Sequence record: PV018828
Direction: 5' to 3' (one strand)
DNA from: Escherichia phage YW01
DNA: 64,000 nucleotides
Numbering within the stretch: the stretch's first letter is position 1; every line of letters starts with the position of its first letter. Both the position numbers and the translations under genes were made by a program. Of the stretch, positions 46,235 to 46,846 are shown in pieces. Below the pieces are notes generated by a model. It was given only the letters and a program-made list of their open reading frames with translations. It was not told where the DNA came from and made no database searches.

Positions 46235-46846
46235 TTAGTAAGACACATCACCACTTGAATGGGACATGTTGCTCTTGACGAAGTAGCAATACTTGCCAAG
46301 ACCTTCATTAATTTCTTGAAGCATACTCTGATCGACAGGGTAGGTGGCTAAATCACCATCAAACTCATCCATCTTCTCAATAATACACATCAAGGTCATG
46401 CACATATCAGAGAGCATACCGTCCATGTCTAGATCAGCATTACCCTCTGAGAACCAAGCATGGGAGAGATAATTAGCTGCTGTAGCATCCACTTTAACGC
46501 AGTGGTAACGCATACGTTCAGCAATACGATCTCCTACCTGTCGTGCGTAATCTTCCAGCTCATCAAACATACCATGAACACCCTGAAATCCTGCACCAGA
46601 GACGTTCCAGTGGTAGTTTTTAGCTTTGATATGCAATAGTTCCATGTTAGCTTGTAAGCAGCTCAGGATGTGTTCTAGGCTGTTTGCACTAATCATGCCT
46701 TGCATTGTTTCAAGGCGAGAGATTGAAAGCTCAGACCGGTCTAACATACTATAACTGTCACGACCAATCTCAGGTAAATCAAAAACATTCTTATGCATTT
46801 GGGTTTTCTCCATCAAGTTCAACTGAGTTAGCAACGTTACGTGCAA
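46235..46846 (-). CDS. Dps-like ferritin-superfamily protein
   Basis: LQANMELLHIKAKNYHWNVSGAGFQGVHGMFDELEDYARQVGDRIAERMRY resembles the Dps di-iron ferroxidase helix pair; true start probably internal (about 46813). Confidence 0.65.
   Translation of the reverse strand: MHVTLLTQLNLMEKTQMHKNVFDLPEIGRDSYSMLDRSELSISRLETMQGMISANSLEHILSCLQANMELLHIKAKNYHWNVSGAGFQGVHGMFDELEDYARQVGDRIAERMRYHCVKVDATAANYLSHAWFSEGNADLDMDGMLSDMCMTLMCIIEKMDEFDGDLATYPVDQSMLQEINEGLGKYCYFVKSNMSHSSGDVSY

What the first reader, a model, noticed from the sequence alone, without database searches (positions are those of the whole stretch)
46235..46846. Phage-encoded Dps-like ferritin-family protein
The ORF carries a convincing Dps ferroxidase-centre helix pair (YHWNVSGAGFQGVHGMFDE ... 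DRIAERM). Dps proteins sequester iron and protect or compact DNA. This is not a standard phage function and could serve oxidative-stress protection or DNA protection during infection.
Basis: partly seen in the sequence, partly recalled or inferred. Interest (0 to 1): 0.45.

Follow-up and report, generated by a model that had tools for sequence, protein, structure and literature searches.

The report
Known Dps mini-ferritin of phiEco32-like phages
The ORF is a real, well-conserved Dps-type iron-storage (mini-ferritin) gene of a phiEco32-like E. coli phage, but it has been annotated as a Dps family member since 2008, so the finding is correct and not new.

Summary
The minus-strand ORF carries the quoted motifs and is a Dps-family protein: Pfam Ferritin is above threshold, all best PDB matches are Dps, and the AF2 model overlays Dps structures at 1.1-1.5 A. 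The ferroxidase residues H63, W64, H75, D79, D90 and E94 are invariant from this phage to E. coli and Listeria Dps. The likely start is the ATG at 46798 (187 aa), not the TTG at 46846.

The window is a Kuravirus (phiEco32-like prolate podophage). The protein is 98.5% identical to phiEco32 gp67, annotated "DNA-binding protein, member of the Dps family". Published SU10 and Privateer papers already note it, so it is already known. Its function is still untested.

New context found here:
- It is a core gene of this phage lineage under strong purifying selection.
- No close cellular relative was found.
- It is the second gene of a two-gene unit: the phage-sigma promoter P68, a small conserved gp68, Dps, then a terminator.
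- The protein is acidic (pI 4.7) and has no basic tail, so "DNA-binding" is not supported for it.
- The "integrase" label in many GenBank records is wrong.

Most likely it sequesters iron and consumes H2O2 during phage DNA replication, after host transcription is shut off.

The parts
46235..46798 (-). Dps-family mini-ferritin CDS (187 aa plus stop), orthologue of phiEco32 gp67. The finding's coordinates, 46235..46846, add 16 codons counted from an upstream TTG.
   Evidence: It is 98.5% identical to phiEco32 gp67. dN/dS is 0.02-0.07.
46559..46615 (-). Helix A to start of helix B motif YHWNVSGAGFQGVHGMFDE. It holds ferroxidase His63, Trp64, His75 and Asp79 (E. coli Dps H51, W52, H63, D67).
   Evidence: These residues are invariant in A1 and in A3, which includes E. 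coli and L. innocua Dps. The E. coli sequence was verified against PDB 1F30.
46511..46531 (-). Helix B motif DRIAERM. It holds ferroxidase Asp90 and Glu94 (E. coli Dps D78, E82), which the two-fold-related subunit contributes to the site.
   Evidence: Invariant.
46808..46811 (-). GGAG Shine-Dalgarno sequence 9 nt upstream of the Dps ATG. It lies inside the 3' end of the upstream gene.
   Evidence: sequence shown.
46791..47120 (-). gp68 homologue (109 aa, phrog_10984, no Pfam family). It is the first gene of the unit and overlaps the Dps start by 8 nt. Function unknown; the low-confidence model is a small SH3/Tudor/KOW-like beta-barrel flanked by helices.
   Evidence: Homologues sit directly upstream of Dps with a 1-nt overlap in Privateer and LAh_6. 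In 7-11 the homologue is present but not adjacent.
47160..47168 (-). AAATGTATA, a match to the phiEco32 gp36 (phage sigma) promoter element tAATGTAtA. It corresponds to the experimentally mapped promoter upstream of phiEco32 gene 68.
   Evidence: The element is invariant in five Kuravirus-like genomes. PMC8948821 lists gene 68 among the six genes downstream of gp36-dependent promoters.
46190..46228 (-). Intrinsic-terminator-like hairpin (11-pair stem, 7 G-C pairs, 7-nt loop) with a T-rich tail, starting 7 nt after the Dps stop codon.
   Evidence: The stem is invariant and the loop variable across Kuravirus-like genomes.

Best explanation
The gene encodes a Dps-type mini-ferritin.

Inferred from family knowledge: twelve four-helix-bundle subunits form a hollow shell. 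Fe(II) binds at ferroxidase sites built across each two-fold interface (His63 and His75 from one subunit, Asp90 and Glu94 from the partner, with Trp64 and Asp79 nearby). It is oxidised, preferentially by H2O2, and stored as a ferric core. This removes both Fenton reagents and so protects DNA chemically rather than by coating it.

Shown here or in the literature: the gene is transcribed with the small upstream gene gp68 as a two-gene unit. The promoter is read by the phage sigma factor gp36, a hairpin terminator closes the unit, and the unit lies inside the middle-gene (replication and nucleotide-metabolism) cluster.

Inferred: phiEco32-type phages shut off host sigma70 transcription through gp79, so the infected cell cannot induce its own dps. 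The phage therefore supplies its own iron and peroxide sink while its DNA is replicated.
For: Family and fold:
- Pfam Ferritin is above its gathering score.
- The best PDB sequence hits are all Dps: M. smegmatis Dps2, B. subtilis MrgA and B. anthracis Dlp-2, at E about 1e-9.
- The AF2 model has pLDDT 80.7 and helices A, B, short BC, C and D. Its top 50 Foldseek PDB matches are Dps or Dps-like proteins, e.g. 1jig at rmsd 1.1 A over 137 columns, TM 0.89.

Ligands: H63, W64, H75, D79, D90, E94 and R95 are invariant across 13 phage-clade sequences plus E. coli and L. innocua Dps.

Selection and conservation:
- dN/dS is 0.02-0.07.
- The gene is present in about 97 of 98 Kuravirus-like records, and in the Aeromonas (11/11), Proteus (8/8), Salmonella (7/7) and Cronobacter (6/7) relatives.

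Expression:
- The P68 element and the terminator are conserved.
- The promoter upstream of gene 68 is gp36-dependent, and gp79 shuts off sigma70 transcription (PMC8948821).

Context: in four phage lineages the gene lies among dCTP deaminase, thioredoxin, ThyX, PhoH and anaerobic RNR genes.
Against: - No biochemical or genetic test of any phage Dps of this clade was found.
- Two of the three acidic residues that line the iron-entry pore in L. innocua Dps (D126 and D130; residue roles from my own knowledge) are Pro154 and Ser158 here. Iron uptake kinetics could therefore differ.
- NCBIfam Dps equivalog models score far below their cut-offs (34.7 against 114 bits), and E. coli Dps itself matches only at E about 0.1. 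This is a divergent lineage, not a copy of the host gene.
- Phage 7-11 keeps the gene although it does not shut off host transcription. That weakens the 'replacement for host Dps' rationale.
- Dodecamer formation was not modelled.
Confidence: 0.6

Rival explanations
1. The protein is a DNA-binding or DNA-compacting protein, as most database records name it. The dodecamer would bind phage or host DNA directly and condense or shield it, as E. coli Dps does in stationary phase.
For: The phiEco32, SU10 and PHROG 3636 annotations read 'DNA binding protein'. The distant homologues in 7-11 and Privateer have short basic N-terminal tails: 3 K/R and 0 D/E in 9 residues, and 5 K/R and 2 D/E in 16 residues.
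Against: This protein has pI 4.7, with 14 K+R against 29 D+E. Its 40-residue N-terminal extension is net acidic (4 K/R against 6 D/E), and its C-terminal tail has no basic residue. From established knowledge, Dps proteins without a mobile basic tail, such as L. innocua Dps and B. anthracis Dlp-1/2, do not bind DNA. The annotation traces to the family name, not to an assay.
Confidence: 0.15
2. The protein is associated with or packaged in the virion, delivered with or protecting the packaged genome, rather than acting as a purely intracellular enzyme.
For: It was detected by mass spectrometry in concentrated SU10 (35.8% coverage, 6 peptides; PMC4281155). It was also among about ten proteins found in CsCl-purified Privateer particles (PMC7881722). 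BFVD contains Dps-like domains fused to 'prohead protease' in uncultured Caudovirales. The Kuravirus clade has a conserved extra N-terminal segment of unknown role.
Against: The SU10 preparation also contained DNA polymerase, sigma factor, thioredoxin, PhoH and early proteins, which points to carry-over. The SU10 cryo-EM and mass spectrometry study assigns head contents to gp20-24 and does not mention gp67 (PMC9509320). The gene lies in the middle replication cluster, not the late structural cluster. An iron-loaded 250-kDa shell could plausibly co-band with phage in CsCl (inference).
Confidence: 0.1
3. The protein is an iron store or donor for iron-dependent phage or host enzymes of nucleotide metabolism, rather than a protectant.
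For: The gene is consistently embedded in the nucleotide-metabolism module. In LAh_6 it lies next to the anaerobic RNR small and large subunits, and in Privateer next to an NrdD-like fragment.
Against: This window and phiEco32 show no RNR or other obvious iron enzyme near the gene. Dps proteins are generally sinks rather than donors (established knowledge). No Bfd-like ferredoxin partner is present, and gp68 has no conserved Cys cluster.
Confidence: 0.1

Closest known systems
phiEco32 gp67 (ABY52868.1) and SU10 CDS67, 'DNA-binding protein, member of the Dps family'
   Same: They are orthologues: 98.5% and 96.6% identical over the ORF, at the same genome position, with the same neighbours (gp68 upstream, gp66 and thioredoxin downstream) and the same promoter and terminator.
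   Different: Essentially nothing in the gene itself. This window, like ES17 and TH38, carries an extra HNH endonuclease gene two genes downstream.
Non-DNA-binding bacterial Dps: Listeria innocua Dps (Fri, 1QGH) and Bacillus anthracis Dlp-2 (1JIG)
   Same: Four-helix bundle with a BC helix, identical ferroxidase ligand set, acidic protein with no basic tail, and rmsd 1.1 A to 1JIG.
   Different: Only 20-26% identity. This protein has a clade-specific N-terminal extension of about 40 residues containing a conserved S-x-x-R-[LM]-[ED]-x-M helix. The pore positions equivalent to D126 and D130 are Pro and Ser. It is encoded by a lytic phage and driven by a phage sigma factor.
Escherichia coli Dps (1DPS/1F30), the host protein
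   Same: Same family and the same ligands, H51/H63/D78/E82.
   Different: Very distant: phmmer E about 0.1 over only 40 residues, and 18% identity. This protein lacks the Lys-rich N-terminal tail that mediates DNA condensation, so it is not a recent capture of the host gene. No close cellular relative appeared in 185,579 species genomes.
Dps genes of other phages: Gratiaviridae and Flandersviridae gut phages, and Lactobacillus myophages such as LP65 and Semele
   Same: They are phage-borne Dps-fold proteins, for which a role in oxidative-stress tolerance during infection has been proposed (PMC8008677; BFVD hits).
   Different: They belong to different phage lineages and to distant sequence clades (13-24% identity). 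That paper's statement that phage Dps was known only from Lactobacillus phages overlooked the C3 podophage clade, annotated since 2008.

Membership tests
Dps (mini-ferritin) subfamily of the ferritin-like superfamily | Sequence match to the ferritin-like domain above the curated threshold | tested here: met
   PF00210 scores 31 bits against a gathering score of 24.5, E 2.9e-7. All 25 homologues carry precomputed PF00210.
Dps (mini-ferritin) subfamily of the ferritin-like superfamily | Four-helix bundle with a short BC helix in the long B-C loop and no fifth E helix | tested here: met
   The AF2 model has helices 41-65, 71-98, 107-112 (BC), 125-150 and 154-176. The top 50 Foldseek PDB hits are Dps or Dps-like proteins, with rmsd 1.1-2.5 A for most and TM to target up to 0.90.
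Dps (mini-ferritin) subfamily of the ferritin-like superfamily | Inter-subunit ferroxidase ligands: two His on helix A 12 residues apart, then Asp and Glu on helix B (HWx10Hx3D ... Dx3E), with the adjacent Trp | tested here: met
   H63, W64, H75, D79, D90 and E94 are invariant in A1 and A3 and align with E. coli H51, W52, H63, D67, D78 and E82.
Dps (mini-ferritin) subfamily of the ferritin-like superfamily | Assembly into a 12-subunit hollow shell with 23 symmetry | not testable with these tools
   Only a monomer could be modelled. Conservation of a site that exists only across the dimer interface is indirect support.
Dps (mini-ferritin) subfamily of the ferritin-like superfamily | Fe(II) oxidation by H2O2 or O2 and storage of a ferric core | not testable with these tools
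   This needs purified protein. No published assay for this clade was found.
Dps (mini-ferritin) subfamily of the ferritin-like superfamily | Acidic residues lining the ferritin-like three-fold pore (L. innocua D121, D126, D130; from my own knowledge) | tested here: inconclusive
   The aligned positions are D149, P154 and S158. D156 is nearly invariant one position away. Pore composition varies among bona fide Dps proteins.
DNA-binding Dps (E. coli type) | Mobile Lys/Arg-rich N- or C-terminal tail | tested here: not met
   The N-terminal 40 residues have 4 K/R against 6 D/E, and the C-terminal 11 residues have 0 K/R. Overall pI is 4.72.
NCBIfam Dps equivalogs (NF006975 Dps, NF041388 and NF052461 DpsA) | Whole-protein score above the curated cut-off | tested here: not met
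   Scores of 34.7, 32.4 and 17.6 bits against cut-offs of 114, 170 and 300. The protein is in the same superfamily and subfamily but is not an equivalog of those cellular proteins.
Phage integrase (the label in ES17, IME267, DE5, KM01 and other records) | Tyrosine- or serine-recombinase catalytic domain | tested here: not met
   Pfam finds only Ferritin, and the fold is a Dps bundle. The CDS labelled 'integrase' in ES17 is this same 564-nt gene.

The most novel reading that the evidence does not exclude
The gp68-Dps pair is a dedicated two-protein module with a role beyond simple iron storage. One version is that the small SH3/Tudor-like gp68 tethers an otherwise non-DNA-binding Dps shell to replicating phage DNA. 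Another is that the clade-specific N-terminal extension targets Dps into or onto the prolate capsid. Either would explain its detection in SU10 and CsCl-purified Privateer particles, and would parallel the Dps-prohead-protease fusions seen in uncultured phages.
Probability: 0.1. Interest if true: 0.55.

Novelty: already known. Interest (0 to 1): 0.2.

Why it matters
The gene's identity adds nothing new. phiEco32 gp67 has carried the Dps label since 2008, and two papers mention it.

What remains open is why a whole lineage of strictly lytic prolate podophages keeps a divergent mini-ferritin under strong purifying selection, with its own phage-sigma promoter and a conserved small partner gene. 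Nobody has tested this. A knockout and a ferroxidase assay would be simple, and would give the first functional data on any phage Dps.

There is also a practical point. Kuraviruses are used in phage-therapy cocktails, and many GenBank records label this gene 'integrase'. That can wrongly flag a lytic phage as temperate.

Tried and rejected
- Host-gene capture: rejected. E. coli Dps matches only at E about 0.1. A scan of one genome for each of 185,579 species found nothing closer than 47% identity over 53 residues.
- Non-functional or spurious ORF: rejected by dN/dS of 0.02-0.07 and by published peptide evidence.
- TTG start at 46846: rejected in favour of the ATG at 46798.
- Bacterioferritin or maxi-ferritin type intrasubunit di-iron site: rejected. 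The only ExxH (E53-H56) is not conserved, and all structural neighbours are Dps.
- Integrase: rejected.
- gp68 function: Pfam found nothing and PHROG assigns unknown function. The AF2 model is poor (pLDDT 63) and no Foldseek match reached E<1e-3, so only 'small beta-barrel' can be said.
- The original phiEco32 papers (PMC2587145, PMC3275717) are not held, so the promoter and timing data are cited second-hand from PMC8948821 and PMC4281155.
- Hit P0032 (1156 aa, 20 repeats) in the representative search is a tandem-repeat artefact.
- The sigma70-like promoter scan gave no more hits than shuffled sequence and was not used.

Full report
**1. Observation**

The minus strand of the window carries an ORF at 46235..46846 (203 aa from a TTG).

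Three candidate starts were examined. Only the ATG at 46798 (M17 of the ORF) has a GGAG box at the right distance, 9 nt upstream. phiEco32 and ES17 annotate the same 564-nt CDS, and all homologues align from that Met. I therefore take the gene as 46235..46798(-): 187 aa, 21.2 kDa, pI 4.72.

**2. What it is**

- Pfam gives Ferritin PF00210 above its gathering score (31 against 24.5 bits, E 2.9e-7).
- PHROGs gives phrog_3636 'DNA binding protein' at E 3.8e-55 over the whole profile.
- phmmer against all PDB sequences returns Dps proteins almost exclusively. The best are M. smegmatis Dps2, B. subtilis MrgA and B. anthracis Dlp-2, at E 3e-9 to 1e-8. E. coli Dps itself reaches only E about 0.1.
- NCBIfam Dps equivalog models hit, but far below their cut-offs. 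This is a divergent lineage within the family.
- An AlphaFold2 model built on 17 homologues has mean pLDDT 80.7 and about 90 in the core. It shows helices A (41-65), B (71-98), the short BC helix typical of Dps (107-112), C (125-150) and D (154-176), plus a lower-confidence extra N-terminal helix at 21-37.
- The top 50 Foldseek PDB matches are Dps or Dps-like proteins. Examples are 1JIG at rmsd 1.1 A over 137 columns (TM to target 0.89) and 2D5K at 1.3 A over 140 columns.

**3.

The test was loss of the ferroxidase ligands in a proper alignment. I aligned 13 phage-clade sequences, down to 29% identity, with E. coli Dps and L. innocua Dps. The E. coli sequence was verified as identical to PDB 1F30. 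The L. innocua sequence came from memory.

The invariant columns are H63, W64, G68, F71, H75, D79, D90, E94 and R95. These correspond to E. coli H51, W52, G56, F59, H63, D67, D78, E82 and R83. The test is passed.

Among Kuravirus-like genomes dN/dS is 0.02-0.07, with synonymous sites nearly saturated between sub-clades. The gene is therefore under strong purifying selection.

**4. Where it comes from, and prior knowledge**

The surrounding 2 kb is 98-99% identical to Escherichia phages TH38 and ES17, and matches 98 phage records, nearly all from Escherichia or Shigella phages. The window is a Kuravirus (Gordonclarkvirinae), a phiEco32-like prolate 'C3' podophage.

The protein is 98.5% identical to phiEco32 gp67. 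Its 2008 GenBank entry reads 'DNA-binding protein; member of the Dps family'.

- The SU10 paper lists CDS67 ('contains a DPS domain') among the few middle genes shared by all five C3 phages then known. It detected the protein by mass spectrometry (PMC4281155).
- The Privateer paper found the Dps homologue in CsCl-purified particles and notes that its function is unverified (PMC7881722).
- Dps genes are also reported in Lactobacillus phages and gut 'Gratiaviridae' (PMC8008677).
- I found no functional study of the protein.

The finding is therefore correct but already known as an annotation.

**5. Distribution**

- tblastn finds the protein in 136 phage records. Of these, 97 have at least 60% identity.
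- The portal protein of the same window has 98 records at 90% identity or more.
- The more distant prolate podophages that share the portal also share Dps: Aeromonas 11/11, Proteus 8/8, Salmonella 7/7 and Cronobacter 6/7. The still more distant PaP3-like Pseudomonas phages do not appear among the Dps hits.
- An exhaustive profile search of 1.84 billion cluster representatives gives only 7 clusters at E<=1e-30 before merging into general Dps, with 3325 at E<=1e-3.
- A scan of one genome per bacterial or archaeal species found no close relative; the best was 47% identity over 53 residues.

It is a lineage-specific core gene, not a recent capture of the host dps.

**6. Anatomy of the locus**

Directly upstream lies a 109-aa ORF at 46791..47120(-), the homologue of phiEco32 gp68 (phrog_10984, no Pfam family). 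It overlaps the Dps ATG by 8 nt.

Homologues at 29-33% identity, with 20 invariant residues, sit immediately upstream of Dps with a 1-nt overlap in Privateer and in Aeromonas phage LAh_6. In 7-11 the homologue is present about 1.3 kb away.

In the gp69/gp68 intergenic region the window has AAATGTATA at 47160..47168(-). It matches tAATGTAtA, the single-element consensus of promoters read by the phage sigma factor gp36. PMC8948821 states that gene 68 is one of the six phiEco32 genes downstream of experimentally identified gp36-dependent promoters. The element and its flanks are invariant in five genomes whose Dps proteins differ by up to 19%.

Seven nucleotides after the Dps stop codon there is an 11-pair G+C-rich hairpin followed by a T-rich tail, at 46228..46200(-). 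Its stem is invariant and its loop varies among the same genomes.

So gp68-Dps is a self-contained bicistronic unit inside the middle-gene cluster. That cluster also holds dCTP deaminase, thioredoxin, ThyX, the ligase N-terminal domain, PhoH and replication genes.

**7. Mechanism**

Shown:
- Dps fold and a complete, conserved ferroxidase ligand set.
- A conserved match to the promoter that the literature maps upstream of phiEco32 gene 68.
- A terminator-like hairpin after the stop codon.
- Protein expression, from published mass spectrometry.
- Purifying selection.

Inferred from family knowledge: dodecamer assembly, H2O2-preferring Fe(II) oxidation and iron-core formation. Together these remove both Fenton reagents.

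Inferred biological rationale: gp79 of phiEco32-type phages shuts off sigma70 transcription. The infected cell therefore cannot mount its own Dps response while phage DNA is replicating, and the phage provides the function from a promoter that gp79 stimulates.

A caveat is that 7-11 keeps the gene without a host shut-off.

One speculative idea was not tested. All these phages also carry the flavoenzyme ThyX, directly adjacent to Dps in 7-11, and its oxidase side-reaction could be a local H2O2 source.

**8. DNA binding**

The common annotation 'DNA-binding protein' is inherited from the family name. This protein has 14 K+R against 29 D+E. Its 40-residue N-terminal extension is net acidic, and its C-terminal tail has no basic residue.

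From established knowledge, Dps proteins lacking a mobile basic tail, such as L. innocua Dps and B. anthracis Dlp-1/2, do not bind DNA. Direct DNA binding is therefore unlikely for the Kuravirus protein. The short N-terminal tails of the 7-11 and Privateer homologues are basic, so the property may differ between sub-clades.

**9. Virion association**

Two mass spectrometry reports place the protein in phage preparations. BFVD shows Dps-like domains fused to prohead proteases in uncultured phages.

Against this, the SU10 preparation also contained many non-structural proteins. The SU10 structural study attributes head contents to gp20-24. The gene is also a middle gene. I rate this reading at about 0.1 and give it as the novel case.

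**10. Verdict**

- Observation: confirmed.
- Interpretation: partly supported. The family and ferroxidase centre are right; 'non-standard for phages' and DNA compaction are not well founded.
- Novelty: already known.
- Interest: low (0.2). The residual value lies in the untested function, the conserved gp68-Dps operon and the widespread 'integrase' mis-annotation.

Noticed in passing
window 46235..46798 (-); ES17 locus L026:649-1212: Many GenBank Kuravirus records (ES17, IME267, DE5, KM01, CHD5UKE1, IMEP8, XT73 and others) label this Dps CDS 'integrase'. Another record calls it 'ferric iron binding protein'. No recombinase domain is present. The error could wrongly mark strictly lytic therapy phages as temperate.
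   Followed up: yes
window 46791..47120 (-): gp68 homologue: a small conserved protein of unknown function, translationally coupled to Dps in three phage lineages. The low-confidence model is a five-strand SH3/Tudor/KOW-like barrel. It is a possible partner of Dps.
   Followed up: partly
window 45251..45721 (-): An HNH_3 homing-endonuclease ORF (156 aa) is wedged between the thioredoxin and ThyX genes and overlaps both ends. It is absent from phiEco32 but present in ES17, TH38 and FH3, so it looks like a mobile insertion in the nucleotide-metabolism module.
   Followed up: partly
window 47193..47808 (-): Three tandem small ORFs (69, 69 and 65 aa; phiEco32 gp69-71) are paralogues at about 26% identity. 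They share a TRxxARxxK motif and a C-terminal tyrosine. Function unknown.
   Followed up: partly
BFVD entries A0A6J7XDU5, A0A6J7WPK9, A0A6J7WIS1, A0A6J5N5R9: Dps-like domains occur inside much longer proteins of uncultured Caudovirales, several of them named 'prohead protease'. This suggests capsid-targeted Dps domains in some phages, reminiscent of encapsulin ferritin cargo.
   Followed up: no
window 48352..49770 (-): A 472-aa protein (phiEco32 gp73 homologue) has a weak PolyA_pol/CCA-adding head-domain match and matches phrog_12715 'nucleotidyltransferase'. It lies just upstream of dCTP deaminase.
   Followed up: no
window 46386..46417 (-), Dps residues 128-138: Helix C carries a conserved Met/Cys-rich motif (GMLxDMCMTLxC). 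The protein has 15 Met and 5 Cys in 187 residues, which is unusual for Dps. The significance is unknown; it could relate to metal specificity or redox sensitivity.
   Followed up: no
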